Shown: positions 15,798-56,970, counted from the whole stretch's first letter. The stretch: 62,443 nt of DNA, filler included, from Collodictyon triciliatum (GCA_043381765.1; 4 parts of 4 records of this genome joined end to end with filler, not necessarily neighbours in it), one strand, 5' to 3'. Notes: generated by a model not told the origin, from the sequence alone. Translations and numbers: made by a program.

Positions 15798-18700
15798 ATG
15801 AGTCGCTCGTCGCAGATTTCCAAGATTGCAGGAAACTTCCGAAGCGACATATCGCCCAATTCGAGTTTAAATCCAAACATGAGCCCAACCAAAGATTTTT
15901 TCAGTCCACTTGGCTGTTTTGTGCTCAGAGACCGCGGGGACCCACCGAAGTTTGCGAAACGCCACACAAGACCTCAGTTGGAAAGGAGCTTTTCTGCGGT
16001 TGATTCTTTTAATTATGGACTTCATCTATCCAGCGAGGCAGGTGCGTTTTTCTTCTAAATATAAAAGGGAAGTGACAATATGTTTGAGATGTCTCTTTCT
16101 ATTTTATACTATTTTTTATATCAAAAATGAAGACGATGGACTTTTTACCCTATCGGGTATATTTGGATTGAATCAAGAATTATTAACACATGACTTTCCA
16201 ATGCTAATTGAGATGCTCCATTAAGATTATTTTATTTTTATTATGATTACGATTATTGTCTGATCATTATGATATTCATTTCTATTGCCATTATTAGAAG
16301 AAAGTTTAATGAAAATCGCGGCATACATGCACTGATCCATTTATATATTCATTCCCTTGATTGATTCAAGGGAATGAGTTTTTGTACAACTGGGGATGGA
16401 TTTGTTAGATAATTCTTATAGTAAAAATTATATACGCAGACGATGAGTTTCTGAGAGAATTAGACGAGGCCTCTGGGACAGTCATTATGCTTTCAAAAGC
16501 CATCGCGATTTTCCAGAAAAAAATTAGAAGAAGATTTGATAGAGACCTTTTTACTTATTCAAGTCTTCTGGTCATTCTCCTTCTGATGTCCTCGTTCGTT
16601 ATTCCTACCTCCTTGAACTTTCAGCATGTATGTATTTTCCATCAAAATACACATGTATATCGCATTTTCTTTCGATTATCATCAATATTCAGGTTGGGGA
16701 TATTCTTCACACAATGTCCTCAACGTTTCCATATATATATTGAGAGCTTGGTAAATAAACTTATTTTGAAGAGAGCCATATTAACTTTCGTGATTTCGAT
16801 TGTGTAGAGTGATTTTGTTGATGGTGACTTCGGCTCAGGTGAATCCTTTTTCCTTTCATAGCTTATGCAATATTATCACACGTTCTCACTGAATGATACT
16901 TTTTTTAAAATAATATAAATTAACTCTTTATTTTTAATAAAATTATTTGAATAGCTGGAAATCCCAATTTCGTAGATTATGCTTCTGTCATATCTTCGGT
17001 GAGAGCACCCATATTCTTTTACTAGAAAACCTTACAATATTACAACAGAGTGCCCTCTTATTAGATGATATATGTATACCTTTTAATCAACCTGAGTTTC
17101 AAGAAATTATTCTTAATACTGATAATAATAACCATGGGTATACTGAATCTATATGGACATAACACAGAGCGACATTTATGCGGTAAAATTATACCAAAAA
17201 CCAAATAATTATCCTTTGGAATAAATTAAATTACATGAAAAAAATAATCGAATAATAAAAAAAATCAAACATTCATAATTTTCTTTGTTGAACTATCATC
17301 ACAGTAAGCAAAAGAAGATTTAAATACTATAAAACATAGTTCATCCAAGGAACAATTATACCTGCTGTTGGAATGGATGGAGTAATTGACTCAAGACAGG
17401 AAATAGTTGGCTCCGTATTGCTCCGTCAGATTCGCTCAAAGCCCATTACTTGCAAAGTAAAAGTTCCTCACCAACAATGTTATGGGTTCTATTTGTCTGA
17501 TAATGCAGATAAAAAATCATTTGGACCACCAAGCAACCCTTCGTATGTATTAGTTGAATAGTTTGAGTGCATTGCTCTTACAATAATTCAGATGCATGAA
17601 TTACTGTTTTACCTGGTGTGAATGGGAATAGCATTTTATCTTTTATATATTCTTTTAAATTGAAAATTTCTCGTCACTCTAGAAAATACACTTGGAGCGA
17701 TGGATACTCTGACTTGTATCCTACTGTGCTGTATTACTCTGATTTGAATTCACATCAAAATTATAAAACCTATGGAACAGGAGCATTTGGTATTCTGTTG
17801 CCAGCGAACTCCTCCTTGTTAGAAAACTTTGTCCAGGAACTTCAAGTATGGATAAATAAATGAATCGTTCATTTTCAATGATTTTCATATTGATAATGAT
17901 ACAAATATATATGTATTGATTCATCTTTATCGCGTTTCTCTACCACTGAATACTTTGATAAAATTTTCCCTTCAATATTCTTTTATCAAAGGAAGATGAA
18001 TGGATTTCTCCTGCAACAAATGTTGTGGCAATCAATCTTGGTATTTTAAATCCTGATATTGGGTACGCTGTTTCAGTCGAATATGTGAGTCGCAGTTTCA
18101 TTTAAATGCAAGCACATCGCTTTGAATCGAATAAAGGAAAAAAAATGCAAGCACATCGAATCATCCAGTAACAATGTTGCGATACATTTACCCTTTTTAT
18201 TCGATTCAAAAACTATATATTTAGGCTGATTCACTAAATTTTCACCAAAATATAAGCATGTCAACTCCTTAATAAATTATTCAAAACCAAATAATAAAAG
18301 GTTTTCGAGATACCTCCAACAAGCAGGGTTATATCAACTAGGAGAATATCCAGTTTTCCTCTCACGATGTAGGGCACCCGCTCATCTTCAATATTGAACA
18401 CTTTGTGATATAGACTCACAAACAAACGATGATATAATCATTTCAAGGACTTTTCAAACAATATTTTCGTTTGAATAATTTTTTTTATTAATATTAGTAC
18501 AGAGAGAGTATCGTTTTATGTACTGTACTCTTTCTTCATTATCCGGCTGGGTCTTGAAGTCATACACGAGTTATGGGAGGTTTGGAAATGGAAACACATA
18601 TATTCTATGTAAATACATTCATACATATTTCCTGGTGAGAGCATAAAGTTTATTCGATGTATTTTTTTCCAGCTTGATTTTAATTTCATCATTTTCTTAC

Positions 18701-21700
18701 CCACTGGAACTTAGCTCCGTTGTTTGGGGATATATGGATACTTTTCCATAGGATGGAACATTCTTGAACTGGGGTCCACTATCGTATGAACCACAGTTTA
18801 TTTCACTCTTTTTGAATCCAAAGAAAAATTAATAGGAAGAAATTTAACAGGCTATAAAGAAGTGTAAGAATGGAAATAAGAGAAAATAAGAAGGAATACT
18901 ATGAAGAGCATGAAAATATAGTTTACTCCATTGAAGCTTAAAATTTGTGTAGATATTTGTCTGTTTCGCTGCATACCTGGGTCACTTCTCAGACCTTGCA
19001 TCCTCATTGAAAGATGAAATACAAACGAGTTATGAAAGCAATAAAGCGCTGCAGTATATCGATTTCCAATCCACATCTTACATCTACTTTGTCATTCAGG
19101 TTTGAATGTAAATCGAGATTCGATATAAACATTAAATATATGGTGAATCGGATGGCACCAAATATATATCCCTTGAAGTGGTAACACACGACAAACATCA
19201 GAGTTTAGCTGGGGTTGGATGTTCCCTTGCCCTTGTCAAGATATTTAAATATCTGAGAGTTTACGGACGATTCAACACGCTCTGGAAAACATTGAATGCT
19301 GCCGCATCAAGTCTCTTATCGTTTATTGTTATTTTTGGTGTCGTTTTGGTGTCATTCGCTCTATTTGGGTAACTTTACAGGAACCTTGTTTGCAATTAAC
19401 ATCTAAAACAAATTTATTTCACCTTTATTCAATGTCATTTTTTTAATCGTTTACTATTTTAATATTTCGGCTCATGCTATCGGTGTCGTAGGTATTATTG
19501 TTTTGGGCACACCATGCAAGAACATCATAACATCCAAATGTCGATGATAACTACAATTCAAATGCTCACGGGAAACTATGACCATACGCGATACTTGGAA
19601 GCGCATCCAGTTGTCTCATATATCTTTCTCCTGACTTACCTGTCCTTTGTATTTTTGATTCTGAGTGAGCGATTTTATATTAAATTCAAGTAGTTTATCC
19701 TGAAAAGTTAAGCATATGATGCTAGGATATTTGAATTGCTTTTAACCCTTTTTCATTCACCAACCATTCTCCTAAATTTCGACTATATAGCAAATATGTT
19801 CATCGCCATCATAACACAATTCCATGAAGTCGTCACCGGTGAGACTCGAAAAGTCGCACAAGAAAACATCGATAGCATACACTCATTTAAAGAAGGGCGT
19901 AAAAGGCGTGGCTTAATCAGAGATGATGTAGCATATGATTTTTTTAAGGTTTGGAATAGTGATTCCATTAAATCTGATACGGAGAAAACAAGAACGTTAA
20001 TATGTTTTTTTTTAATCGGACGAAAAACAATTCTTATGATACTCAATCGCAGCGATACAGTGAAGTTAAGCCCAGAATTATACAAAGAAAAAGCACAGAG
20101 CCAACTGCCATATATCAAGTTTGCTTAAATTAAGAACAATATTACCTTTTCATTCCTTGAAGCTCTGACATAGTATTTTTTTTTTTAAAAGAAACCCCCT
20201 TTTCTTCCTAACCAATCAGGGAAACTACGTGTTTCTTCCTTTCGCAGACATTACAGAAAAGGGACCTAAAGACAAAGTTCATGTGCGTGTCACACCAAAT
20301 TCTCATGTTTTATCTTACGAATCACTTTATCTTATATAAATCTATCTATTTAGCGCATAAAAATGGAATCATCTGTAATGAACCATCACACGATACATGA
20401 GTTCATCGAGGATGAAGACATCCTTCATTTTAAGTCTACAGACGAATCATATAACACTTGTTTATCTCTCAAAAGAGTCAGGGATATGAGCTCGCGAGTG
20501 CTTCCACAAGTAACACATTAAACTTGAATCCAAGCTCCTTAAAATACTGTTGGATCTTAAATTTTCTGTTAGCCAAATCTTTTAGAAAGATAAAACCTGA
20601 CTTTTCTATTATTTCTTTCAATTTGTAGAAAGATATTACCTGATACATATCTTGATATAGGAATTGAAAGAAGAGGTAAAAGGTCTCTTGAAAAATAAAC
20701 AAGGGAAGTTCTTTGTATCTCTTGGGGATTTTTACCTGAAGTGCGATGCAGTGTTTGTGCTCCCTGTATGGCTAGAAATAAAACTGTCATTGCGTGTAAT
20801 AAAAAAAGTTGGATGGACTTTTCTCAAGAGCCACTTTAAAGGTGAGCTTCCTTTTTGATGATGTTTATTTTTGAATATTTGTATGTAAATGAATTTGTAG
20901 GTATTCCCAAAAGAATATTTTTGTTTCATTTTAAGTTAAAATGAAATATTTTCCCAATTAATCCATCATCTCGATTTTAACTGCAAACCTGATCAAATAT
21001 GGGTCACAGTCTTGCTGGTCATATTCGACAAGATGAAAGGCAATAAACCACGAACAGAGACAATATTGAGTGATGACCAGGTATATGATAAGATAGTCGA
21101 TCAACTATAATTTTTCTGGGGTTTGAAAAAACTACGTCTTGATATACTAAATAATTATAATTTTAATACTGAAGCAATTTAATTAGATGTTGTGTGATTA
21201 ACTTTCAGATGTGCTTTCCAATAGGTCGTCAAAATATTGCAGCAGGCACAAATTGTGACGTTGAAAAGTGGAGAGAAATCAATCGTCCGAGAAAAACTTC
21301 GTTTTTTTGAGTTTACTCGGGACATTGTGTGCGTAAATTACGAATGCTGTGGTGTTTTAAAGCAACAATCATATCAGCGCTGATTTATTTGCACATATAT
21401 CGCAATAGGTACTTTCATTCCTTGGGGTTGTCCAAAATATCGGATCAGAATTTCAACTATCTTGTGGAAGCTCTGAGGATATTCAAAATATTGAAAGAGA
21501 ATGACGGGACGTCAGACGTCGAAAATCCACCTGTAACCACTTGACATTTGTATATTTTATTGTATCGTTTTTTCTCCCCTTATTACCTTAAAGGTGGTAT
21601 AATTTTTTTTTCTTTATTGATTTGTAATATAGCCAGACGCTAAAATTATTAAAAGGGCGACATATCAACATTTCTTTTCAATTTATGTTTGTAACAACAT

Positions 21701-23537
21701 ATTCTGTCAAATTAAAAGGACCGACATGTTTCATTTATGTAAACGCCCACACATTCACGCGATTCAATACAGGCGGCCGACCCTGAGCTCGATGAGCATT
21801 ACAAACCTACACCCATAGAGGCTGCGATATCCGATGTATCTGAATTTTCAGACCTCATCAACAGTCTCGCAGAGTATATTCATGACTGTTGGACTGTTAA
21901 TCGCTTAGAAAACAATATCATGTTTGTGAATTCCGTTCAAATTCCCAAAATTTACCAGGAAACAAAACAAAAACAAAAACAAAAACAAAAACGAAGCAAA
22001 AACAAAGCAAAAACAAAGCAAAAACAAAGCAAAAACAAAGCAAAAACAAAGCAAAAACAAAGCAAAAACAAAGCAAAAACAAAGCAAAGACAAAGCAAAG
22101 ACAATGCAAAACCAAAGCAAAAACATAAATACAAGGACAAAATTTATATCGTTAGATACGGAAAAGAGAGAACCGCAACACACCATCCCAATATGGCTCC
22201 ATTTGATGAACTCTCCGATGAGATCCAATCATATGACCGCATTATGACGTCCCAAGTTAGCCCACCGATATAAAAATTCATTCTATTAAGCGCCACATTT
22301 TCATCATGTAAAATATACGTTTTCTACAACTGGTCGGACATATGTTAAATACACTAAATTAATGGGCATTATCATTATTTTCATGTGCAGATTCTCAAAG
22401 TTTTGCTTGAACTTGGCTTTGAGATTGTGAAAGAGAATGAGAACCCTACACCGCCAAACCTAGTGTCCGTAGTTATTAAGGGCAAATATAAGGTTTGTAA
22501 TCTTATGGTCAAATTACTCATTTCACAAGATACTCACCTTTTAATTTATATTTACATATCCTTTTCTCTGTCATTCATTCTTTCAATTTTTGCATGACCA
22601 AAAGCTCTTGCAATTTGTCTTATGTCGGGGTTTCATTAAATTCTATACGCTGTTTACTGCTATGTATCCATTTCACATGCATTATATTATGTCACTTATG
22701 ACTGGTCCTACCTTGGGGCCGCGGATGTGATATGAACATGACCAAAACTACAGCCAATATTAAGAAAAGAAAATTCCTTTTTAATTTTTGATTATTTTTC
22801 TCTTAGGAAGAATTGAAATGTCCTCCGAATTACAACATCAGTATTCTCAAAGAAACTGTCACCATCCCGCCCCAAGTGTCTGGACTCATTCTCATTCTCG
22901 CAGAAAATGTCCACGACGCTTATTGTCTGGTTTGTCTATTTCTCTATCTGTATTTGTATCTGTATCTATATCTATATCTATATCTATATCTATATCTATA
23001 TCTGTCTCTCTTCCTGGGTTTGCAGATTGTATGATTGGTGGGACTATTCTCTTTGATTTATACATCCATCCCACACTCAAACCACTACACAATTTATGAT
23101 ATCCACACAGTTATTGTTGATATTATTATGAATATGATTAATTCTGTCATTCACCGAACGACTGAATCAATGACGAGGAGAAACGCAAACAACTCTCAAA
23201 ATACGATGCATTCATACACAATTTGATTATACAAACATACTTTATTATTATTATTATTATTATTACTACTACTACTTTGTCTGCATCTACACACGTATTT
23301 CTATCCACTCAAGCGGCCATCGTTCTCACCCACCAGAACCAAATGGCCAAAGGCTGGGTTTATGGACCGCAGTACAACGCGGTTGAGAAGCAATCGCCAA
23401 TGCTGCGCCCTTTTTACTCCTTGTCCGAGTCTGACCGTTCGTCAGACATAACCACAAGTCGGGCAGTGATTCGTTCTCTGATGTCGCGGGGATACATAAT
23501 CAGAAGAAAGCAGAGAAAGTGGTATCAACTGTGGTAA
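15798..23537 (+). CDS. Polycystin-2/TRPP-type cation channel with two C-terminal RyR repeat domains (many exons)
   Basis: TOP domain IVGSVLLRQIRSKPITC, YGTGAF, WISPATNVVAINLGILNPD, VFEIPPTSRV. S3 WNILELGS. S4-S5 LVKIFKYLRVYGRFNTLWKTL...SFALFG. Pore QMLTGNYD. S6 FLIL|TNMFIAII. In-phase exons then lead to RyR repeats LAEYIHDCWTVNRLENNIIYGKER...HPNMAPFDELSDE and LAENVHDAYCLNQMAKGWVYGPQY...PMLRPFYSLSES. Start codon uncertain (next to a gap). Confidence 0.85.
21960..22120. repeat. (AAAACAAAGCA)n 11-mer repeat in the intron within RyR repeat 1
   Basis: Tandem repeat. Confidence 0.9.
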
Positions 23538-24021
23538 GTAGGGTAATCATGATTAGTGATGATGCGCCTCGACCCTGCGACTGTGGCTGCAGGATAATGG
23601 GGTGCCCCACGGTTGAGAGAAGAAGAAAGAGAAGAATAAAAAGGGTGCTCGCGCTCCAATTAAGTTGATTGTGTAGATGTTTAGTCAACTTGATGAGTTT
23701 GGCTATGCAGGAAAGATTTATTTTATTTTTTACCCTTTTCTTTACTGAATTCAAGGGAAAGGATTTTCTTTATCGGTAATCATCATGTTATTAGATTCTT
23801 ATGGGTTACCCTTGAATCAAGCGAAATAACTTAAAACATATTCATTTACACGCGCGAATGCATGATTTATTTTACTAAAAGTGCTCATCGAACCAAAGGA
23901 TTTAAACGCTGAATTCTTTTTTTCTTTTCTGAATGTTGTGTTGTATTTTCACTTCCTTTGTTTTGGGGAAAATGACGATTTATTATATAACTCTGGTGGG
24001 TCAACTCAAAAAAGGCGCCGT

Positions 24022-25070
24022 TTAATTGTTGACACTAAACTTGAATCTGGAGAGAGATTGGGACGAGAGAAAGAGACAGAGAAAGATATATAGAGAGAGA
24101 GAACAAAACAAACATTAAAGCTAAATCGACATAATAAATCATATATTTGCAGAGATAGTCATCCTACTGCGTTCACCATGGTTTATTTATTACATATTAA
24201 AGTAACCTGCATTTCGTGCATTCATAAAAGACAGTCTGTCCTTCGTCTGCAGACCGAAGCTGTGCTGTGGAGAACCGCAATTGGTTGTGGTTGCATTTTG
24301 GACAGAGCTCTTTGACCTATTTGATAAACAAAACATAATAGAATTAATATCGAAATAAATTATGAACCGAACCGACTCACGAGAGAATATCGCAGAGGAT
24401 AGTTAGGAATGACCCAAGATAAAGTCGATATACGTTCGTTAATGGACTGATAGGACTAAGCTCGATCGGGCCAGTGCATAAACACCCGCAAGAGACAATA
24501 TATATAGACTTACAATTGCTCTTTGGTCGACGACCTCAACGACTCTGTCTTTTACTTGCCGCAAAGTCATTCGAGACACGACTGTTTTCACCTCAAATTC
24601 TAATGTAAGAGAGAGGAAAATGGTTGAGGAAAATGGTTGAGGAAAATAATAACAATAATAACAATAATAACAATAATAACAATAATAACAATAATAACAA
24701 TAATAACAATAATAATAGTAATAGTAATAATAGTAATAATAGTAGTAATAGTAGTAATAGTAGTAATAATAATAATAATAATAATAAAGTAATGTTGATG
24801 ATAGGAGCCCACCAATAGAAGCAAAAGAATTGTAATAACAACAAGGTGAAAACAAAAAGGCATGTCCACAGATAGTGCAACACTTTGTGTGTACTGAGAG
24901 TTCTTTGTGGAGGAAAGAGAAGGCAAGCACGAGAGAAACATACTTGCTGTTGGGCAAGTGAATCCGCAGCCGCCGCACTCGATCACAGAGCCGAAGGCGG
25001 GAAGAGACAACATATTGTTGCATTGCGAGCAAAACTGGATAGGCAGGGCTTTCGTGGCAAACAGGCTCAT
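24022..25070 (-). CDS. RPA12: RNA polymerase I subunit A12 (4 exons)
   Basis: N-terminal zinc ribbon FCSQCNNML...IECGGC and C-terminal TFIIS-like ribbon CPKCNH...QLRSADEGQTVFYECTKC|RFKFSVNN*. Confidence 0.93.
24645..24787. repeat. (AATAATAAC)n/(AGTAAT)n microsatellite in RPA12 intron 1
   Basis: Compound tandem repeat. Confidence 0.9.
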
Positions 25071-25748
25071 TCCTTTTGTTCCGTCCCTGCTGCAACGCGA
25101 CTCAGAGTCTTCTGCAGCGATTGTATTTCTTTTTCTTATCAGTTGTCCAAGAATGAAAAAAAAAAAACCAGAAGGAAAAGAAAAAAAAGGGGGGCCGCTT
25201 AACAGGCCGAAACAACAGGCGCTCGTCACGCAGGATATTTTGTTTTCTTTCGCGCTGCCCTTCTCATCAAAATAGCTTTCTTCGTCTGAGTACGTTCGCT
25301 GGAGAGCAATTAGAAAATTAGGCTGTGTTTGACCAACGGAGCAGGCGGGCTTTGTGGCCGACGAGACTGAGTGGAGGTTTGGGTGAGCACCTCGGCTTTA
25401 TTTTCGTGAGGCCTGTCGAAGATGAATCTGCTCAAGTGCCTTCTCGTGGCTACCTAAATATTTCAGTTCTTTTTTTTTTTTTTTTAGCATTACACTTAAT
25501 CAATTATTTCCCCTTTATTCGGTTCAAAGACTCTATCAGATTGCATTTCTTTATGTATTTTTCTTTCCCTTTTATTTGCTCTTATTTTTTCTGCATCACT
25601 CTGGTTTCACTTTCCTAATAACCTTCTTTTTTAAAAGAATTGTTTGTACTATTATTTTTTTTACTTCTTTTTCTTTTTCGTTTTGTGACGTATTTATCAG
25701 TCGAAAAGATACCTCACACGATCTTTTCCATAAAAATTATGCAAGGAC

Positions 25749-26916
25749 ATGTCGGATACTCAGTCAGTCGACCGGGCTTTTGCTCAAGAGCAGGACATCC
25801 ACACAAACTTTGTTGTCTCAGTCTATGGGCAAATCGAGTCAGCGAAAGTAGCAAAACTTATACCTCACCACTTATCCATTCCAACCGAAACCACCGCATC
25901 AAAGCACGCACCGCAGTCCTTCCAAACACTGCAGAATTGCAAGCCACAGCCTAATATCCACTTTCCTTTACGTCGCGTCTAGTACGATTCTGTGGACAAT
26001 CTATACTGCAAATACGCCTTCATACAAGGCCCAGACTGGGAGTTGACAAAGGTTTTTTTCTCACTATTATTTTCATTTTCTTTTCAGTTCTCTCTCCTTT
26101 TCATGAGCATTTTATTCATTTATTCATTTATTCATTCATTTTCTCAACAAAGGGCTTGGAGGACGGGATGACGCAAATGTCGCACAAGTCCACCGCCGCA
26201 AACAACCTGATTGTCTGGAACTTCCCGATCGAAGCGTCCTTCCGCTCGACAAACCCCTTTGGCTGGCCGCAGCTGATCATCAGCGTCTACGGGCTCGATG
26301 CCTTTGGCAGAGACGTTGTTCGGGGCTATGGCTGGACGCATCTTCCAGCAGCCTCTGGGAGGTTCTCAGCCAGCATTTTTTCTCTCTCTTTTCTTATTTT
26401 CGTTGAGCCATCATCACAATCATCATCATCATCATCATCATCATCACAGCCATCACAATCATCACCCCCAGATTCATCACGTACGTACCGCTCTTCAAGC
26501 CAATCTCCTCATCGTCCCTGCAGCGCTTCACATCGTGGCTCACAGGGATGAACCCAGAATACATCGATGCAAAGTTTGCGGCAAAAGGCGAGGGCCGCGA
26601 GAGTGAGTCAGCAACGCTCTCATCTGTGCTGTGCTTGTTACTCTGCTCTTTTTCTTTTTCTTATTTTATTTTTTTTTCCCGTGTTTTGTTTGTGTGCTCG
26701 TGTCTTCCATAACCCCCTGTAATGGTCAGACCATATCTCTTGCCTTGTGCTCTGCGATGTTCGATGTAGTAAAGAGATTGGATGCTCCAATTAGTCACAA
26801 GAACGACGTCCGAAGGAATAGTCAAGGTCGCGCTGAATGTGCTCATGAAGGACTTTGCTACGCATCGGTACACAGAGGCACATGGCGGGAATGTCAAGCC
26901 CACAGTGCTTGATTGA
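25749..26916 (+). CDS. B9D1: B9 domain-containing protein 1 (ciliary transition zone, MKS module)
   Basis: [38 protein letters not shown]...[40 protein letters not shown]...[14 protein letters not shown]...GEGRE|..RTTSEG...LD*. Confidence 0.93.
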
Positions 26917-27091
26917 CTGCGAGTTGGCTACTGTCTGTACATAAACACACACACTCATATACTAGAAAAAAAAATGTGCATCGATACCTTTGGTAGAGTC
27001 AGTTCAGTTCAGTTCAGTTCGTGGGTGCTGTTTGTGGGTCAGAGTGATTTATTCACTATGCAGACAGACAACATGCAGGGTGCTAGAGTAC

Positions 27092-27919
27092 TTAGATGTC
27101 GGCGATGGTGACCTCAATGTCCACTCCGGGCTCAATGCTGACGGCAGTCTGGTGGATTGAGTGTTACAGGAAGAGAAGGGAGGCCCCGGTCAAGGAATAC
27201 ATTTCCGTGAATAAAAAAGCTCATGGAGGTACCGTTGGAGGTAATACAGTTAACGCGTGGCAGGGTAATAGTTGTACAAAAGAATGGAGTCAAGTATGGT
27301 TGGTGATTAAACAGATAGAATGGGGAACGGAGTTGGAGGCACATCATTATCAATCGGTCATGTTAGGATACGATATCGCGGACAACATCTGGTGGGGAGT
27401 GAATGTCGATGACGCGCTTGTGGATGCGCATCTCGAAGCGGTCGTAGGTGTTGGTACCCTCACCGCAGGGAGACTTGCGGGTGGTGATGCGGAGGGTCTT
27501 GGTGGGGATGCGGACGGGGCCACGGGTCTTGAGCTTCTTGTTCTTGGCTCCCTGGATGAGCTCAGAGCAGACTACAGAGCAGACGTAATTAATCTTAATA
27601 TGCGAGAGGTATTGTTGGAACCTCCTTGGTCGCTCTGAAGTCAGATGGAGGCAAAAAATACGGGCGGGAAGTAAAACATAGGTAGGCAGGCTGTGTGCGT
27701 TCGAAGACTGTAAGGGTGGCGGGGAAAGGAAATGAGGGAGATAGGGAGAGAGAGAGAGAGGGAAAAGGAGAAGGAACGGAGAAGGAACGGAGAAGAAGTG
27801 TTGTCTGCAGGAAACCTACCCTTCTCAAGATTGGCAACGTTGCGGGAGGTCAGGGTGATGCGGATGCGGTGGAACTTGACTTCCTCCTGGGCGACTTTCT
27901 TGGGGGCAATGGTGGCCAT
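27092..27919 (-). CDS. RPS20: 40S ribosomal protein S20 (uS10); introns 27572-27819 and 27149-27371
   Basis: [19 protein letters not shown]...[40 protein letters not shown]...[14 protein letters not shown]. Confidence 0.97.
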
Positions 27920-27928
27920 CTATAATTG

Positions 27929-27987
27929 AGGGAGAAGTTTCAGACCGACCATGCTTAGTGCAAGTATTCCTTTTGCATATCTTTATA
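27929..27987 (-). promoter_or_regulatory. Candidate TATA box and 5'TOP-like pyrimidine tract of RPS20
   Basis: Minus strand TATAAA at 27982-27987 and CTTCTCCCTC at 27929-27938, just before the ATG. The TSS is not known. Confidence 0.3.
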
Positions 27988-28907
27988 TTTCTTTTTCTTT
28001 TTTTTTTCGCTTCTCTTTCGGTTGTCGCGCAACCAAAGGTGACGAGGAAGTTACGGCCTCATGTAGGGCAATGTGGCCTCTGCAAGGGAATCTGATTTTG
28101 TATAGATAGACTCACGTTGTTGAGGCTGTTGGAGAGTACTTGGACCTAGGTCAACCGGGTGGGGATCGACGGAACTGATTCGGGCGGAATCGGACGGGAG
28201 TTCGCAGGTGACGTACGTGAGGATTTGTGATTGCGAAAGAGAAATTATATCGGGGACATTAAACAGCGCAACAATTATACCAAAGGCCTTCGCATCGCCC
28301 GAGTTATTCGAAAAAAAAATAGAGGAAAAATCGCTATTGTGGAAGGCGAGATTCTGGCTTTCCGAGGGTGTGCATCGAGCTTGTCTTCTGCATTGTATTG
28401 TGGGTTGATGCTGGTGACCACAAGCAAAGGAAAGTTGTTGATGTCAATTATCTGTATTTGCATGTGTTTAATTGATTGAAGTAATCAATATTGGAAATTA
28501 TAAATAATTTAACAAAATTCCAGTAATTGAGAACTTCAGCATTAATTCGATCATTTAGAACGCCTAATATGATAATTTTATTACCTATTATAGGCTGAAA
28601 ATATGAATTCAGTGGTTACATGTGCCATGCGTTGGGAATGTGCGCTCTGCGTAGAATGAGCAGATAAAAAAAAAAACTGTCACAACTCCTTTGCCAAACC
28701 CATCATTATCACGCGACCAAACATCATCCAAGCAGCGAAAAGGCACGCACAAGTCCCACTCCCATGCCAATTCCCCAACTAGCAAAGTAGACACAAACCT
28801 GAATACAAATAAAAAGACCTTTCGCCGTTCCACCAACCCAACTCCACAATGCAGGCGCCAGGAAAGAGTCAGTCGAAAAAACTCGCAACAGAGCCAAGGC
28901 CACGGAG

Positions 28908-46561
<17,654 letters not shown>

Positions 46562-46589: not shown

Positions 46590-46920
46590 CTTTTTCTTCT
46601 TTCTTTTTCCTCTTTTTCCTCTTTTTCTTCTTTTTCTTCTTTTTCTTCTTTTTCTTCTTTTTCTTCTTTTTCTTCTTTTTCTTCTTTTTCTTCTTTTTCT
46701 TTTCTTCTTTTTCTTTTCTTTTTCTTCTTTTTCTTTTCTTCTTTTTCTTTTCTTCTTTTTCTTTTCTTCTTTTTCTTTTCTTCTTTTTCTTTTCTTCTTT
46801 TTCTTTTCTTCTTTTTCTTCNNNNNNNNNNNNNNNNNNNNNNNNNNNNNNNNNNNNNNNNNNNNTTAATTAATTAANNNNNNNNNNNNNNNNNNNNNNNN
46901 NNNNNNNNNNNNNNNNNNNN

Positions 46921-50725: not shown

Positions 50726-53563
50726 TCACGGGTCGGCCGAGTGCCCGCTTGCCCCGGCCGCAGCCGCAGCCGCGTTGTGTTTGCGCAGCCTGGCCACAAA
50801 GCGCTTCCTGTGCGCAGCCTTGCCCTTCCTCTTGGAGGCCGCAGCAGCCTTGTCGAGCATCTCGTCCGTGATGGGGTTGCTTGCAAGGTCCTCCATCAGC
50901 TTGTGGTACGCAATCTGCCGCGACTCTTGGTCCGGTGCGGCGTTGCGCAGCGCTTCGCGGATCAGGCGGCGGCGCAGACGGGCTCGCAGCCCTTTCTTTT
51001 TGATTGGGATGCCCAGGATGCGCTTCAGCCGGTTCACTTCGAGGCGGCGGATTCGGCGCATCAGCGCTCGGGTGACCACCGTGTTTGGATCCAGCGTCGA
51101 AAGGATGTCCGGCTCCTGCTTCGCCTCGCCCGGCTGCAGAAACTCGATGCTGATGTCCTCAGACACCCGGCATAGCTGGCAGTCCGACGGCCAGATCTCA
51201 TGGACGTGCGCTTGGAACCTGTGGTTTGGGTGGTTACTTTTTTTGTATTTATATATATATAATTGTTCTAATCATTAGTTTTTGCTTTTCATGATATACT
51301 GATTAATATTATTATTATTTTCTGCTGCGTTTGATTCGGACAAGAGTGATATTACGCACACTGAAGAGCCGATCTGGATGATGGTCGATGTTTCGATTTG
51401 GCACTCGAACGGAAGTCCGCTTGATCCGAGGCGGTGTCCATTGACGTGGGTTCCGTTTAGAGAACCGCGGTCTTGGATAAAGAATGATTTGCTGCCAGTG
51501 TCTGAGTGGAGTGGGTGTTGTTTTGTTGTTATAAAAATCAATATTTTGTTTCTTAGTCGGATGAATGGGAAATTAGAGGTAAGATATGGCCATTTCTTTG
51601 GCTATGATTTATCTCAGCTCGCAATCAAGGCTCATAAGAATTGTTACATCAAAAAATATACTATTAATTTTCAAAGTTATATATACTTCTACATATAAAG
51701 AAGTGAGCGTTACCATAGCCGATTGCGCAGTGGTTGAATGCAACTTCACCGTCGTCAAAGCAAAAATGACTGGCATCGCATAAAAAGAGCGGTTGAGCAT
51801 GTCGGGTTTGCATTAGGTTATAATCGATATTTTAATCGAGGGTAAAGGACATTCGAAGAAGAAAAGGAAAGAGCCTCACTTTCCCTCTTTGACAGTGTTT
51901 CCAAACGTCGCACCAGAGGGCTCCACTTCCACGAGAGATGCTTGTGTGAGAATCTTCGACCTCAGGCAAATCAATCGCAATTTCTGGACAGAGTTCATCT
52001 TAGTGAATTGTTCTTTTCCAAAAAACAAACAAACATATTATAGAGAAACATAAGGAAATTTGGAGAAAGGAAAGGTAAATTGAAAAGGTAAAATGAAGAC
52101 GTATGGCTGTACACAAAATACATCAAATGAGAGGATATGCATGAGGAGAAGTGACTAGTGTATCCGTACCGGCTTGTTGGATGTATACGGATTCAAACAT
52201 TCAAGCATCGCGCCTGTCTCAGGGTTTTTGTAGACGTACACACCAGTCCATGTATCATAGTAGAGACTTGTATTTGCATCGTAAAAGTATCTATACGAAA
52301 ACACAGTCAATATCGTAAAAAAAAATATATGGCAGTTTATAGTGCGAACACACAAGTACTTTCCTCGGCGGTATATGCTATAAACTTTGTGCAAACCTTG
52401 TTCTTTTGAGCTGCTCCAAAGTCATTCCGGTGAACTCATTTTCATTTCCACCTGCATCGTCCTCGTCATCACTGTCGTCAATCAAGCCCTCCTCGTCGTC
52501 ATCATCATCATCACCACCAACGTCGTCGTTATCAACGCCATTCATGCGAGCGTCGTCGTGATGACCTTTGTACGAGTCTTCATTTTCCGAATGGTCGCTG
52601 TCTTCGTAGCCTCCCAAATCCAGTCCAACTGATTTCTGCCGGTCGGGAATGTGTGTTTGCCTTGCAGCCTGAGCCAGCATAAAGTCCTCATCATCCGATG
52701 CATCCAAAATCTCGCCTTCGTCGTAGGATGATGTGGGCGATGCGACTTTCATTGCATCGTGGATGTTTTTGGCTGGCTGGATACTCGGTTTCTCTGGTTG
52801 GGTAGTGATTGCCGGACGTACTGTGCTCAGCAGAGGGGCAGGATTGTGATTTGTCAGAATGGGGATGATATCATTCTCATCATCTATGATAAAACGGGAA
52901 AGGAAGAGAAGAAAATGAAAGAAATGTTAGTCTCCGTGTTTGTGTCAAATAGTAGAATGTGTGAGAAATGAGGACGGGACAAGTTTTGAAAGAAAAGCGG
53001 TTTTGCTGATTGTTTGTGGTGTTTGAATGTGTCGAAAGAGGTGTATGAGAGCTATTCAGGCGTATGCGAGTAAATGGAGCAGAGAAGCAGAACATCGAAA
53101 TCAGACTTCGGACAGAATAGAATATAGAGCGTGGAGGAAAGAAAGACGCATATTTGTTTATAATGCTGCGACGAAAATGGTGATGACTGCGCGGTTTGAT
53201 ATACATGAGAAAACATGCGAGAAAAAGTGCGAGGCGGTGCAGACAAATGAATTAAAGAGTCGTTAGTAATGGTCCTTCTTTGTATTCCGAACACTGTGTC
53301 GAGTCCTACGTTACTTTACCGCACTATGCAAGCCTGTGTCCACTCATGAGAGGATTCTCTTTACAATACAAAAGCAAGGATGCCTTCGCAATAGTTATTA
53401 TGAAACAAAAAGAATAAAGAAGAGGAGTAATAAAAGCGGAAGAGGATCTCTTTCAGTCTGCCCCGAAGCATTTGAGCGAACCCTTGCGTGACCCACCTTC
53501 GATTTCTCCGTCTTCATCGTCACTGCAGACTCTGTCTGCAGTTAAATCATCCTTTGCAGCCAT
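50726..53563 (-). CDS. AGGF1-like protein with OCRE and FHA domains
   Basis: OCRE YFYDANTSLYYDTWTGVYVYKNPETG. FHA LRLICLRS...GATFG...HCAIGY|D...FFIQDRGSLNGTHVNG...IIQIGSS. Followed by HVHEIWPSDCQLC and RRLEVNRLKRILGI, which parallel the post-FHA segment of AGGF1. Confidence 0.78.
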
Positions 53564-54615: not shown

Positions 54616-56970
54616 GAATTCGCACCCGCAACAGAGTCGCGTCCGCACTTGATTTCCGAATACCACAACAAACTCATAGCTCGACTCGACCCAAAAGCAA
54701 AGAAGAAATGTGCGGATTGTCCCAACGAAGTTGCGTTTCTGTGTAAGGACGGTTGTGATTTTCTCTGTGTCGAGTGTCAAGAGAAGCATCACTCAAAGTG
54801 GGAGAGAACTGTGAAACACAGAGTCATGTGGGTTACTTTGATTCTTCTTTTGTCAATCTCCCTTCATGTTCGTACCGGTTTTTTTTAAAAAAAAAGTAAT
54901 GATAATATGATACACTTGCCACTAACTTTGGTGTGATTTAGTCCACTGACAGAGGTGACCAACATGGACATTCTGCATCCTCGGCTGTGTCTTTTACATA
55001 AGAGTCCGATTGTTTGTCTGTGCGAATCGTGTTGGCCAGTTTCTGAAAAGTGTTATCAATGCACAACGGAGGATTTACTGTCAAACATTATTCACCCACA
55101 AATTAGAGTATCGAGCTTCGACTATTCATCGATCAAAGAAGACGAGTTGATTGAGAGAGTGACCGAGAGGCTTAATACCTTGGAAGATAAGAAATCACAG
55201 CTGTCTGACCTGCTGACATTAGTATATTGCCATCTTTCCTCTATTTACATGATAATTGTAATCTTGTGTGATTTAACTCTAGCAAAGATGATTTCAAACT
55301 AGCTTTTAATCAGAATCCTTTTTCTTTTTCTTTTTTTTTTAAGATAGCACAGGAGGAAGGAAAAGAGCTTAGCAAAATAACTACATTCTATGAGGAGACA
55401 AAGAAAAAGACAGAGGACCTGTATCGTAAGCTCATAGAACAAGTATTTCACGCATTTGCAAAGTTGTATAAATATTCATACCATTCATAATTGCGATCGT
55501 TATCATTTTAATAATCATGACCTCTTATCAAAGGCAAAGGACACATTTTCTTACGCATCAGCGCCCATCGAGTCAGCGCGAGGAGAAATCGAAAGGACAG
55601 AAAACTTGCTCAAGCACTGCGTCCAGCTGCTCACAGAATCGAAGGCCATCTACGAGAAGGAGAAGATCGCCTCGAAGCTTCTCAAGAGCAAGCTACTCTG
55701 TGAAAAAGTTTTAGAAAAACAGATACTGGAACCAATCCAACCGGATTTGAAGACAATCAAGTCAGCTCTACCATTGGACGCTCATCTGTATGTGGATAGA
55801 AACGGCGCCCACTTGTTTGGAGAGTCCTTCGACTTGGTGAAGTCGGAGTTGGACGAATCGCTCCAGAAACTGGCAAGCTTGAACGAAGCATACAGAGAGT
55901 GCGAACAAGTGAGCATGTCGAGAGAGAAGGAGCTGGAAGGTCTCAGGGCTGCACTTGAGCAGCATGAGAAGGAACTCGGCGAGCTCAGAAAAGAGAAATC
56001 GGAAAGGGATGCAAAAGATAGAGAAAAGGAAGGGGAAAGGGAGAAACAAGCGTTACAGATGAGAAGTATGTGTATAACAAGCTGGAGATACAATGCTAAA
56101 GATTACAGGTATTACAAGCACGTCGGCTCAAATGGGGATGGCCAGCTTCAATTCAAGAATCCACTTGCTGTCGCAGTTCACCCGAAAACAGGGCATATTT
56201 ACGTTGCAGACACGTATAATCATCGAGTCCAGGTTCTGAGCGAGGAACTGGGATTTGTCAGGATATTTGGGGGAAACGGTTCAGGAATTGGTCAAATGAA
56301 TTGTCCCTTCGGAATTGCAGTTTCGTTGGATGGATTGATTGCAGTTCCCGAGTACAGTGGCAACAGAATCCAGATTTTCGACGAATCAAACACAGTTGTG
56401 AGCACGATTAAATCCGGGCAAAAAAAGAGTGCGAGTTGCAAGCGAGCAGAGTTTGACGGATTCTCGAATCTATTCCAAGTTTGTTTTGATAACGAAGGCA
56501 ATCTTTTTGCAGCAAACTATGGCAAGAATCGAATCGACAAATTCAATCGCGCGTTTGAGTTTGAGTGTTCGTTTGCATTGTCGTCATCTGGCGAATCCGG
56601 TGTTTCAAGTCCGGTGGGTGTTTGCTTCACATCAAAGAATCAGGTCTGCGTTGTCGGTCGTGGAGCAGACAGACTCAAGTTCTATGACACAAATGGGACT
56701 TTCCTCAGAAGTATGAATATTCAGAAAGTCGGCGGCTGTCCATCAATTGCAGAAGGTCCGAATAACTCGATTTTCGTCTGTGATTATGATGCATCCCACC
56801 GGATTATTGCATACAACACAGAGAATGATGCTGTGATTCACACGCTGGGCTCATCTCAGGGGTCGAGTCCTGGACAACTCTCTTATCCCGTCGGGCTTTG
56901 CTTTGGTTTGAATCAGAAACTCTATGTTTGCGACCAATCTAATTATCGTATCCAAGCATTCGCAGCCTGA
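54616..56970 (+). CDS. B-box / coiled-coil / NHL-repeat protein (TRIM-NHL-like); 5' part hidden in the 500-N gap
   Basis: B-box CADC...FLCKDGCDFLCVECQEKHH...KH, a second Cys/His cluster CLLH...CESC...CYQC...H, a long coil, then NHL blades FKNPLAVAV...IYVADTYNHRVQV, MNCPFGIAV...NRIQIF, LSYPVGLCF...LYVCDQSNYRIQAF*. Confidence 0.88.

What the first reader, a model, noticed from the sequence alone, without database searches (positions are those of the whole stretch)
15798..23537. Polycystin-2/TRPP channel fused to tandem ryanodine-receptor repeats
Seen: the ORF track stops at 21544, but a phase-0 intron (GT 21533 to AG 21772) joins the channel tail (...DVENPP) to AADPELDEHYKPTPIE. Exons 21773-21921, 22156-22255, 22391-22492, 22807-22929 and 23337-23537 chain without frameshift into two complete RyR repeats (LAExxHxxW/Y...YG...PxM/LxPFxxLS...LxxxGF/YxI). 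There is no gap and no obvious separate start between channel and repeats. Known: animal PKD2 ends in an EF-hand and coiled coil, and RyR repeats are cytosolic modules of ryanodine receptors. I recall PKD-RyR fusions (PKDRR) being reported only for oomycetes. Inference: this intron-dense genome does not look like an oomycete, so the architecture is either older and wider than thought or arose twice, giving a TRPP channel with a RyR-type regulatory tail.
Basis: partly seen in the sequence, partly recalled or inferred. Interest (0 to 1): 0.82.

Follow-up and report, generated by a model that had tools for sequence, protein, structure and literature searches.

The report
Polycystin channel with ryanodine-receptor-repeat tail
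This is a real, transcribed gene of an unidentified freshwater protist that joins a polycystin-2-type cation channel to two ryanodine-receptor repeats, a design so far published only for oomycetes but evidently much more widespread.

Summary
A 27-exon gene (15798-23537, + strand, 1094 aa) encodes a polycystin-2-like channel whose C-terminal tail carries two complete RyR (PF02026) repeats. The spliced protein gives two full RyR domains and aligns end to end with PKD-RyR proteins of Diphylleia rotans (E 1.65e-123) and oomycetes (E 1.5e-58). It is therefore a member of the PKDRR family.

Three papers call that family oomycete-specific. It is not. The same architecture occurs in database proteins of two glaucophytes and Diphylleia. 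The window's protein falls outside the oomycete clade, next to Diphylleia. The host is intron-dense, AT-rich and not an oomycete, but I could not name it.

Mechanism is inferred. The RyR repeat pair was recently shown to be an adenine-nucleotide/ADP-ribose pocket, and repeat 1 here keeps all four pocket residues of that half. A nucleotide-tuned cation channel is my leading guess.

Verdict: new member of a known kind, with a wider range than published.

The parts
15798..16041 (+). Exon 1 (aa 1-81, cytosolic N-terminus, ATG 15798)
   Evidence: Inferred only: open frame and GT donor. No cDNA cover in any run. The N-terminus has a length comparable to the Diphylleia homologue.
16440..16627 (+). 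Exon 2 (holds helix S1, aa 118-136)
   Evidence: Donor joint 16627->16808 in X1. The acceptor is inferred. Hydropathy.
16808..16838 (+). Exon 3
   Evidence: Joints 16627->16808 and 16836->16953 (cut +2), X1.
16955..16998 (+). Exon 4
   Evidence: Joints in X1.
17168..17182 (+). Exon 5, a 15-nt microexon
   Evidence: The X1 joint 16998->17339 carries 14 letters between its two sides, and these match this stretch (table 5c).
17340..17542 (+). Exon 6 (polycystin/TOP domain)
   Evidence: Acceptor from the X1 joint. Donor chosen by best family-HMM score. Polycystin_dom E 0.00091.
17683..17845 (+). Exon 7 (TOP domain)
   Evidence: Both ends inferred: open frame and best of the 22 open-frame alternatives scored, 548.5 bits.
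17992..18084 (+). Exon 8
   Evidence: Donor joint 18084->18301 in X1. Acceptor inferred.
18301..18368 (+). Exon 9
   Evidence: Joints 18084->18301 and 18368->18498, X1.
18498..18579 (+). Exon 10 (S2)
   Evidence: Acceptor joint. Donor fixed by contig-length arithmetic (464 nt between anchors) and likeness to the PKD2 S2-S3 linker as I recall it.
18715..18783 (+). Exon 11 (S2-S3 linker, start of S3)
   Evidence: Contig-length arithmetic and open frame.
18953..19099 (+). Exon 12 (S3 and S3-S4 loop)
   Evidence: Contig-length arithmetic and open frame.
19202..19368 (+). Exon 13 (S4-S5)
   Evidence: X1 record 1 piece 19198-19367 is contiguous with the next piece (table 8). PKD_channel profile 100-152, E 5.5e-08.
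19492..19664 (+). Exon 14 (pore helix, filter LTGNYD, S6)
   Evidence: X1 record 1 piece 19491-19664. PKD_channel profile 154-210. Aligned to the PKD2L1 pore.
19791..19948 (+). Exon 15 (end of S6, start of the tail)
   Evidence: Pieces and joint 19946->20051 (cut +2) in X1 and X3.
20053..20118 (+). Exon 16
   Evidence: Joint. The X3 loose end before 20215 and the 131-nt gap in the X1 record fit exons 16 plus 17.
20220..20282 (+). Exon 17
   Evidence: Joint 20282->20354 in X1 and X3.
20354..20509 (+). Exon 18
   Evidence: Joints in X1 and X3.
20661..20841 (+). Exon 19
   Evidence: Joints 20509->20661 and 20839->21008 (cut +2) in X1 and X3.
21010..21080 (+). Exon 20
   Evidence: Joints in X1 and X3. 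The 71 nt fit the record positions.
21225..21328 (+). Exon 21
   Evidence: Joints in X1 and X3.
21409..21532 (+). Exon 22, last exon before the repeats (ends ...ENPP)
   Evidence: Joints 21328->21409 and 21532->21773.
21533..21772 (+). Intron 22, the phase-0 'fusion' intron (240 nt). It holds the in-frame TGA 21542-21544 that ends the naive ORF.
   Evidence: Skipped, GT..AG, in X3 record 12 with 124 letters on the shorter side. X1 loose ends on both sides agree. Sequence.
21773..21921 (+). Exon 23, RyR repeat 1, first part (LAEYIHDCW)
   Evidence: RyR profile 1-39, 22.9 bits. Joints.
22156..22255 (+). Exon 24, RyR repeat 1, middle
   Evidence: RyR profile 48-75, 16.3 bits. Joints in X1 and X3.
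22391..22492 (+). Exon 25, end of RyR repeat 1 and inter-repeat linker
   Evidence: Joints in X1 and X3. Repeat 1 is continuous over aa 881-971 in the spliced protein.
22807..22929 (+). Exon 26, RyR repeat 2, first part (LAENVHDAY)
   Evidence: X3 record 12 piece 22805-22928 is contiguous with 23336-23640. No Pfam hit on its own, but it is part of domain aa 1002-1089.
23337..23537 (+). Exon 27, RyR repeat 2, second part, and the TAA stop
   Evidence: RyR profile 36-90, 40 bits, E 4.7e-10. Matches RyR2 repeats in the PDB, E 1.7e-14.
23538..23640 (+). 3' untranslated region (about 103 nt)
   Evidence: Contigs of X1 and X3 both end at 23640, in an A-rich stretch. This is a weak hint only.

Best explanation
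A single 27-exon gene encodes a 1094-residue PKDRR-type protein. It has a cytosolic N-terminus, a six-helix polycystin-2-like (TRPP) channel with the extracellular polycystin/TOP domain between S1 and S2, a roughly 300-residue linker with no Pfam domain, and two tandem RyR (PF02026) repeats that end 2-5 residues before the C-terminus. It is a homologue, probably by descent, of oomycete PKDRR proteins and of unpublished look-alikes in glaucophytes and Diphylleia, so the fusion is old and widespread rather than oomycete-specific.

Likely working (inferred, not shown): four subunits form a cation channel. It keeps the invariant filter glycine and one of the two acidic filter residues of PKD2L1. 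On each subunit the two RyR repeats fold into one clamshell domain like the RY12 domain of ryanodine receptors. That domain binds an adenine nucleotide (ADP/ATP, or an ADP-ribose-type signal) and thereby tunes gating.
For: SHOWN.
- One transcript: spliced contigs with GT..AG skips cross all shown junctions from 16627 to 23336, including 21532/21773. Loose ends carry what I recall as a SMART template-switch oligo, so the library is cDNA.
- Domains: per-exon Pfam hits lie in colinear order. There are two complete RyR domains in the spliced protein. Six hydrophobic helices have the TOP domain between S1 and S2. The pore aligns to PKD2L1.
- Family: the protein aligns with Diphylleia P0037 (1092 aa) in a single HSP, q79-1085 to s52-1077, 27% identity, E 1.65e-123. 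It aligns with Aphanomyces PKDRR over q104-1083 at E 1.5e-58. It scores 548.5 bits against an HMM of 18 PKD-RyR proteins and keeps 15 of 24 invariant and 11 of 15 near-invariant family residues.
- Range: 11 of the 50 long hits scanned (out of 110) carry PKD_channel plus two RyR domains. Named ones are Aphanomyces, Pythium, Saprolegnia, Cyanophora, Gloeochaete (2) and Diphylleia (2).
- Tree of 12 such proteins: window plus Diphylleia 100/99, glaucophytes 100/100, oomycetes 100/100.
- Constraint: 14 synonymous and 13 non-synonymous differences between the window and the cDNA contigs.

INFERRED.
- RY12 of RyR1 binds ADP/ATP stacked on W882, lined by R886, R897, H904, W996, R1000, W1005 and R1020 (PMC13642953, sections read).
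- A phage RyR-domain protein binds and cleaves cADPR through H75, W78, H100 and D117 (PMC13232231, section 4).
- By motif spacing in the alignment, repeat 1 here keeps W, R(+4), R(+15) and the His before Pro. Repeat 2 has Y, Q, W and M at the mirror positions.
Against: - Exon 1 and two TOP-domain junctions lack shown cDNA support.
- The RNA label of X1 and X3 is the tool's guess. Both runs come from one study and from relatives 90-99+% identical, not from the assembled strain.
- The whole spliced protein could not be sent to Pfam or to structure prediction, only exons and in-script HMMs. The 14 proteins behind the HMM were themselves found with exon 27.
- Repeat 1 lacks the family's GW motif (NI instead). 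Repeat 2 lacks two basic pocket residues and the His.
- In the 99-column repeat tree, repeat 2 does not join the other PKDRR second repeats.
- The window's branch is long (1.78), and no unfused PKD2 outgroup was available, so a single origin is not formally tested.
- No functional data exist: the authors could not reconstitute P. infestans PKDRR-B function (PMC7399828 abstract).
- The linker is unmodelled, with pLDDT under 50 in the Diphylleia model.
Confidence: 0.8

Rival explanations
1. The RyR repeat pair is not a ligand sensor. It is a docking, oligomerisation or phosphorylation platform, as the Repeat3-4 'phosphorylation domain' is often described in ryanodine receptors. It would replace the EF-hand and coiled coil of animal PKD2.
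For: Half of the RY12-type pocket residues are changed in repeat 2, and repeat 1 has lost the GW motif. No EF-hand pattern is present in the tail. P. infestans PKDRR-B forms high-molecular-weight multimers (PMC7399828 abstract). The role of Repeat3-4 is recalled, not read here.
Against: All four pocket residues on the repeat-1 (W882) side, which stacks the nucleotide in RyR1, are kept. The HxxW, HP and D positions are invariant or nearly so across 18 PKD-RyR proteins. Ligand-binding residues are reported as conserved across PF02026 (PMC13232231 section 4).
Confidence: 0.3
2. The fusion arose independently in this lineage. A PKD2-like channel gene captured a two-repeat RyR cassette separately from the oomycete event.
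For: RyR repeats are promiscuous. Among the same 50 hits they are joined to RGS, protein kinase, TrkA_N, cyclic-nucleotide-gated-type channels, EF-hands, ankyrin repeats, a cyclase and a sigma-54 activator. Repeat 2 of the window groups weakly (85) with kinase-linked repeats.
Against: Colinear full-length alignments include the roughly 300-residue linker. The repeats sit at nearly the same positions as in Diphylleia (879-974 and 994-1092 against 875-974 and 987-1084). Repeat 1 groups with the first repeats of Diphylleia and glaucophytes (84).
Confidence: 0.08
3. The main product is a channel without repeats. Intron 22 would usually be retained, translation would stop at TGA 21542-21544, and the RyR exons would be a separate or minor transcript.
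For: The naive ORF ends there. Contigs drop rare variants, so a retained form cannot be excluded (notes).
Against: Both cDNA-type runs show the spliced form. No listed contig of X1 or X3 runs from exon 22 into the intron. The phase-0 junction keeps one frame to a stop 2-5 residues past repeat 2. Homologues carry the same tail on one polypeptide.
Confidence: 0.05
4. The piece is oomycete DNA, either a contaminant contig or a recent transfer, so nothing new is shown about range.
For: Oomycetes are the only published holders.
Against: The gene has 26 introns and low GC. The protein lies outside the oomycete clade and is only 24.5% identical to Aphanomyces. RPS20 on the same 15.5-kb piece has no oomycete among the names visible in its best 120 hits. 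The range claim also rests independently on glaucophyte and Diphylleia proteins.
Confidence: 0.02

Closest known systems
Oomycete PKDRR proteins (PKDRR A and B of Phytophthora infestans and others; Zheng et al. 2016, 2020)
   Same: One PKD_channel domain with a polycystin/TOP domain, followed on the same chain by two RyR domains. The alignment with Aphanomyces PKDRR is colinear over about 980 residues (E 1.5e-58). As in subfamily B, the chain ends fewer than 10 residues after the second repeat.
   Different: The host is not an oomycete. Identity is only about 24%. The protein lies outside the oomycete clade. The gene has 26 introns. Repeat 1 lacks the GW motif.
Unpublished PKD-RyR proteins in EukProt/MMETSP sets: Diphylleia rotans (P0037, P0026 cluster), Gloeochaete wittrockiana (P0017, P0059), Cyanophora paradoxa (P0014)
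   Same: Same architecture by Pfam. Diphylleia P0037 has almost the same length (1092 against 1094 aa) and repeat positions, and it is the best match (27%, E 1.65e-123). It is the sister group in the tree (100/99).
   Different: 27-29% identity is too low to show a close organismal relationship. I found no paper describing these proteins.
Animal polycystin-2 / PKD2L1 (TRPP channels)
   Same: Six helices, a TOP domain between S1 and S2, a pore helix and a filter glycine. The AlphaFold model of the Diphylleia relative matches PKD2 structures (9dwq_A, E 3.0e-24, TM 0.74 on the target).
   Different: No EF-hand pattern was found by regular expression. The filter reads LTGNYD against ILGDFD in PKD2L1, so the first Asp is Asn. 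The tail carries RyR repeats. That animal PKD2 has an EF-hand and coiled coil is recalled, not read here.
RY12 (Repeat1-2) domain of ryanodine receptors and stand-alone or phage RyR-domain proteins (RyDEP)
   Same: Two PF02026 repeats in tandem. Exon 27 matches RyR2 repeats (E 1.7e-14). The repeat-1 pocket residues are kept. These domains bind ADP/ATP or ADP-ribose signals.
   Different: No other ryanodine-receptor part scored credibly in the per-ORF and per-exon scans. The only RR_TM4-6 hit (14.6 bits against a cut-off of 25.1) lies in the translated microsatellite of intron 23. No RIH, MIR or SPRY hit appeared. Repeat 2 is degenerate at two basic positions. Ligand binding is untested.
TRPM2 with its NUDT9-H ADP-ribose-binding tail (recalled, not read here)
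   Same: A working analogy only: a TRP-superfamily channel with a C-terminal nucleotide-binding domain that gates it.
   Different: A different TRP subfamily and an unrelated ligand domain. No homology is claimed.

Membership tests
[quoted passage not shown] | PKD_channel (PF08016) six-helix channel, with a polycystin domain | tested here: met
   Per-exon Pfam: PKD_channel E 5.5e-08 and 0.0029, Polycystin_dom E 0.00091. Six hydrophobic helices. 548.5 bits against the family HMM.
[quoted passage not shown] | Two RyR (PF02026) domains C-terminal to the channel on the same polypeptide | tested here: met
   Spliced contigs join the channel and the repeats. Two domains, aa 881-971 and 1002-1089. 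Per-exon Pfam.
[quoted passage not shown] | Full-length homology to described oomycete members | tested here: met
   Aphanomyces: q104-1083 to s227-1214, E 1.5e-58. Saprolegnia and Pythium also match.
[quoted passage not shown] | Restricted to oomycetes (as published) | tested here: not met
   The window's protein is outside the oomycete clade. Glaucophyte and Diphylleia members exist. This is a claim about range rather than a structural criterion, so I still file the protein in the family.
[quoted passage not shown] | Cell-surface location and multimeric complexes (shown for P. infestans PKDRR-B) | not testable with these tools
   PMC7399828 abstract.
Animal-type polycystin-2 (PKD2/PKD2L1) | C-terminal EF-hand and coiled coil (recalled) | tested here: not met
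   No EF-hand pattern in the spliced protein. No EF-hand Pfam hit in any tail exon. Coiled coil was not tested.
Animal-type polycystin-2 (PKD2/PKD2L1) | Filter motif L-G-D with acidic residues | tested here: inconclusive
   LTGNYD against ILGDFD: the Gly and the second Asp are kept, the first Asp is Asn. This position varies (D, N, G, A, E) across PKD-RyR proteins.
Ryanodine receptor / IP3 receptor channel superfamily | RIH, MIR and SPRY domains and the RR_TM4-6 / Ion_trans pore of RyR type | tested here: not met
   No credible hit for these in the per-ORF or per-exon scans. The one RR_TM4-6 row (14.6 bits, cut-off 25.1) falls in translated intron microsatellite. The pore is of PKD type.
RY12-type nucleotide-binding RyR repeat pair | Stacking Trp of HxxW in each repeat, plus basic and His residues lining the cleft (RyR1 W882, R886, R897, H904, W996, R1000, W1005, R1020) | tested here: inconclusive
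   Repeat 1: W, R, R, H all kept. Repeat 2: Y, Q, W, M (residue list from PMC13642953). The mapping is by motif spacing against an unnamed RyR homologue (P0013), not against rabbit RyR1 itself.
RY12-type nucleotide-binding RyR repeat pair | Binds ADP, ATP or ADP-ribose-type ligands | not testable with these tools
   Needs binding assays.

The most novel reading that the evidence does not exclude
PKD-RyR channels are an ancient eukaryotic class of nucleotide-gated TRPP channels. They are present in at least stramenopiles, glaucophytes, CRuMs and this host, and have been lost many times. In this class the C-terminal RyR repeat pair senses the ADP/ATP ratio or an ADP-ribose-type second messenger and converts it into cation or Ca2+ entry. 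If so, the RyR repeat was a nucleotide-sensing gate on channels before ryanodine receptors themselves existed.
Probability: 0.22. Interest if true: 0.75.

Novelty: new member of a known kind. Interest (0 to 1): 0.45.

Why it matters
Three papers treat PKDRR channels as an oomycete speciality and, on that ground, as selective anti-oomycete targets. This gene, confirmed by spliced cDNA, shows the design in a quite different freshwater eukaryote. Database proteins of glaucophytes and Diphylleia show it too. The evolutionary statement therefore needs correcting. The practical point, absence from plants and animals, is not touched by my data.

It also sets up a test that these papers do not mention, by term searches within them. 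In 2025-2026 the RyR repeat pair was found to be an ADP/ATP and ADP-ribose pocket. PKD-RyR channels are thus natural candidates for nucleotide-gated TRP channels. They are much smaller and easier to handle than a 5000-residue ryanodine receptor.

Tried and rejected
- No whole genome is held for the window, so paralogues and rRNA could not be sought.
- The search for homologous proteins with the last RyR exon ('longer') gave nothing (3 candidates). The same tool with a 282-aa neurobeachin-type exon gave nothing within its 495-2000 aa length limit. Both blanks are weak.
- The look-up of sequencing runs listed no holder on record as RNA. X1 and X3 are 'RNA?' by guess, and I read them as cDNA from their spliced contigs. 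X2, X4 and X5 are metagenome holders with small shares and serve as no evidence of habitat beyond 'present in some freshwater-labelled runs'.
- Parts of the gene without contig cover (15790-16053) say nothing either way.
- The ESM Atlas search with the neurobeachin-type exon gave only generic eukaryotic solenoid clusters and no host clue.
- Rfam found only one tRNA.
- Host naming failed. RPS20 (73 aa) is too short, and its best hits are 70-81% identical and taxonomically mixed. I first suspected a small animal from neurobeachin, FHA/OCRE and NHL domains. I dropped this because, apart from one nematode entry, no animal appears among the names visible in the best 120 RPS20 hits.
- The repeat-level tree (70 repeats, 99 columns) is mostly unresolved.
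- The AlphaFold model of the Diphylleia relative is poor overall (mean pLDDT 59.8) and says nothing about the linker. I used it only for the channel match.
- Earlier scan notes hold nothing on PKD-RyR fusions.
- Supplementary files of the papers were not opened. The taxon sampling of Zheng et al. 2020 may be listed there.

Full report
WHAT IS THERE. The region is AT-rich eukaryotic DNA. Stop-to-stop frames carry pieces of PKD_channel, Polycystin_dom and RyR domains in colinear order on the + strand. From open frames, GT..AG sites and transcript evidence I built a 27-exon model, 15798-23537, of 3285 coding bases and 1094 residues with a TAA stop. All 26 introns are GT..AG, range from 71 to 407 nt with a median of 145, and have 29% GC against 41% in the exons.

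TRANSCRIPT EVIDENCE. No run is on record as RNA. Two small runs of one study (X1, X3, coded organisms A and B) nevertheless hold contigs 90 to over 99% identical to the window that skip the introns exactly. Of the 15 joints shown, 14 are GT..AG. The fifteenth (16998->17339) carries 14 extra letters that are a 15-nt microexon at 17168-17182. Seven further joints were not shown.

X3 record 12 (1501 nt) runs from 20354 to 23640 and contains 21532->21773, 21921->22156, 22255->22391, 22490->22805 (+2) and the step 22928->23336. X1 record 1 (1673 nt) runs from before 18084 to 21533 and ends in 11 letters that equal the start of exon 21773. Loose ends carry a string that I recall as the SMART template-switch oligo, which fits cDNA.

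Exon 1 has no cover. Junctions 17542/17683 and 17845/17992 were chosen as the best of the 22 open-frame alternatives (of 24 combinations) scored against a family HMM (548.5 bits). The chain 18498-19368 was fixed by the contig's length (464 nt) together with the S2-S3 linker motif.

DOMAINS.
- Hydropathy gives S1 at aa 118-136. A roughly 215-residue loop follows (the polycystin/TOP domain; Pfam E 0.00091 on exon 6), then S2-S6 at aa 354-563.
- The pore exon aligns with PKD2L1. The filter reads LTGNYD against ILGDFD.
- The tail from aa 564 to about 870 has no Pfam hit and no EF-hand pattern.
- RyR profile positions 1-39, 48-75 and 36-90 fall in exons 23, 24 and 27.
- In a script, an HMM of 14 small RyR-domain proteins finds two complete domains in the spliced protein: aa 881-971 (57.7 bits, 4.6e-20) and aa 1002-1089 (81.0 bits, 2.6e-27). 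Both are continuous across exon junctions. Those 14 proteins were found with exon 27, so only repeat 1 and the first half of repeat 2 are independent tests.
- Exon 27 also matches RyR2 repeats in the PDB (E 1.7e-14).

RELATIVES. An exhaustive phmmer search of exon 27 against 1.84 billion representatives gave 110 hits, with none above 46% identity. I scanned the 50 longest-type hits of the 110 with Pfam, and 11 carry PKD_channel plus two RyR domains. Cluster look-ups name them as follows:
- Oomycetes: Aphanomyces, Pythium insidiosum, Saprolegnia.
- Glaucophytes: Cyanophora paradoxa, Gloeochaete wittrockiana (2).
- CRuMs: Diphylleia rotans (2).
- Three are unnamed.

The spliced protein aligns in one HSP with Diphylleia P0037 (q79-1085 to s52-1077, 27%, E 1.65e-123) and with Aphanomyces (q104-1083, 24.5%, E 1.5e-58), linker included. 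The repeats sit at 879-974 and 994-1092, against 875-974 and 987-1084 in Diphylleia.

A maximum-likelihood tree of 12 PKD-RyR proteins (1112 columns) gives three groups: window plus Diphylleia (100/99), glaucophytes (100/100) and oomycetes (100/100). The window's branch is long (1.78) and there is no unfused outgroup. The repeat tree is weak. Repeat 1 joins the first repeats of Diphylleia and glaucophytes (84), while repeat 2 is unplaced. The protein keeps 15 of 24 invariant and 11 of 15 near-invariant family residues. The GW of repeat 1 is NI.

HOST. It is not an oomycete, judged by gene structure, by the tree, and by RPS20 on the same piece. The best RPS20 hits are 70-81% identical and mixed (protists, green algae, haptophytes). 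The best named ones are Diphylleia at 80% and Rigifila at 77%, and no oomycete appears among the visible names. A B9-domain ciliary gene lies 2.4 kb downstream, so the host is ciliated. I could not name the host. A link to CRuMs is only a hint.

Note also that the window holds three N44-TTAATTAATTAA-N44 spacers about 15.6 kb apart. It looks like four joined pieces. The gene lies wholly within piece 2 (15664-31187), and only 134 bases lie upstream of the ATG.

SELECTION. Of the 27 differences between the window and the cDNA contigs that fall in the CDS, 14 are synonymous and 13 are not. This is roughly what moderate purifying selection gives. In the RyR part the counts are small (3 against 6).

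LITERATURE. PKDRR is described as encoded only by oomycete genomes (PMC7399828 abstract, section 2.2 and conclusions passage) and as 'oomycete-specific' (PMC9694693 passage). For PMC4820453 I saw only the search listing. Searches for PKDRR and its variants, and for RyR domain with polycystin, glaucophyte, Diphylleia or Cyanophora, found no report outside oomycetes. The held library lacks most subscription journals, and I did not open supplements.

MECHANISM (inferred). RY12 of RyR1 binds ADP/ATP stacked on W882 and W996, lined by R886, R897, H904, R1000, W1005 and R1020, and is proposed as an ADP sensor (PMC13642953, abstract and sections 6, 7 and 15 or passages). Crystal structures agree (PMC12627627, abstract passage). 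A phage RyR-domain protein binds and cleaves cADPR with H75, W78, H100 and D117, and the authors report the binding residues as conserved across PF02026 (PMC13232231, abstract and section 4).

By motif spacing, the window's repeat 1 keeps W, R(+4), R(+15) and the His before Pro. Repeat 2 has Y, Q, W and M. I therefore think a nucleotide-tuned TRPP channel the most likely reading (about 0.3-0.4 given the identity). A scaffold or phospho-regulatory tail is the main rival. None of the three nucleotide papers mentions polycystin or oomycetes (term searches, and the sections of PMC13642953 that I read).

VERDICT. This is a new, non-oomycete member of the PKDRR family. It shows, with database relatives, that the family's published range is too narrow.

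Noticed in passing
window 15564-15663, 31188-31287, 46821-46920: Three identical spacers (44 N, TTAATTAATTAA, 44 N) about 15.6 kb apart. The window looks like four pieces of about 15.5 kb joined end to end, so genes in different pieces need not be neighbours. Only 134 bases lie upstream of the channel gene's ATG.
   Followed up: partly
window 25955-26709 (+): Exons of a B9-C2 domain protein (ciliary transition zone; Pfam E 5.7e-24 and 8.1e-06) about 2.4 kb downstream of the channel gene on the same piece. The host is therefore ciliated. Polycystin-type channels are ciliary in many organisms (recalled). The adjacency may be chance.
   Followed up: no
window 27366-27815 (-): RPS20 exon. The best named relatives are Diphylleia rotans (80%) and Rigifila ramosa (77%), both CRuMs. 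This matches the channel's nearest relative but is far too short to place the host.
   Followed up: partly
proteins P0003-P0110 (hits): RyR repeats are joined to many other signalling parts in mostly unnamed metagenome or protist proteins: RGS (P0004, P0015, P0019), protein kinase (P0021, P0031, P0068, P0086, P0108), cyclic-nucleotide-gated-type K channels (P0038, P0039), Ion_trans with four repeats (P0011), EF-hands (P0073, P0089), ankyrin (P0095), a cyclase (P0062), a sigma-54 activator (P0110) and bacterial TrkA_N proteins (P0005, P0063, P0070, P0096).
   Followed up: partly
window 17168-17182 (+): A 15-nt microexon (5 codons) inside the TOP-domain region, confirmed by the letters between the two sides of a cDNA joint (table 5c).
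   Followed up: yes
window 15664-15760, 21956-22140, 22931-23016, 23234-23282: Long microsatellites upstream of the gene and inside introns 23 and 26. The read-laying tool skipped three of them as repeats.
   Followed up: no
window 33959-41000 (+), 51278-52421 (-), 55438-56967 (+), 3127-3895 (-), 8836-11763 (-), 390-461 (+): Other genes in the other pieces: a neurobeachin-type BEACH protein (DUF4704 E 4.4e-43), an FHA plus OCRE protein, a 510-aa open frame with NHL repeats, a bromodomain protein, a thiamine-pyrophosphate enzyme and one tRNA.
   Followed up: no
spliced protein, pore exon 19492-19664: The residue after the filter glycine varies across PKD-RyR proteins: D in Diphylleia, Aphanomyces and Gloeochaete b; N in the window and Gloeochaete a; G in Cyanophora; A in Saprolegnia; E in an unnamed Pythium-like protein. 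This hints at differing ion selectivity.
   Followed up: no
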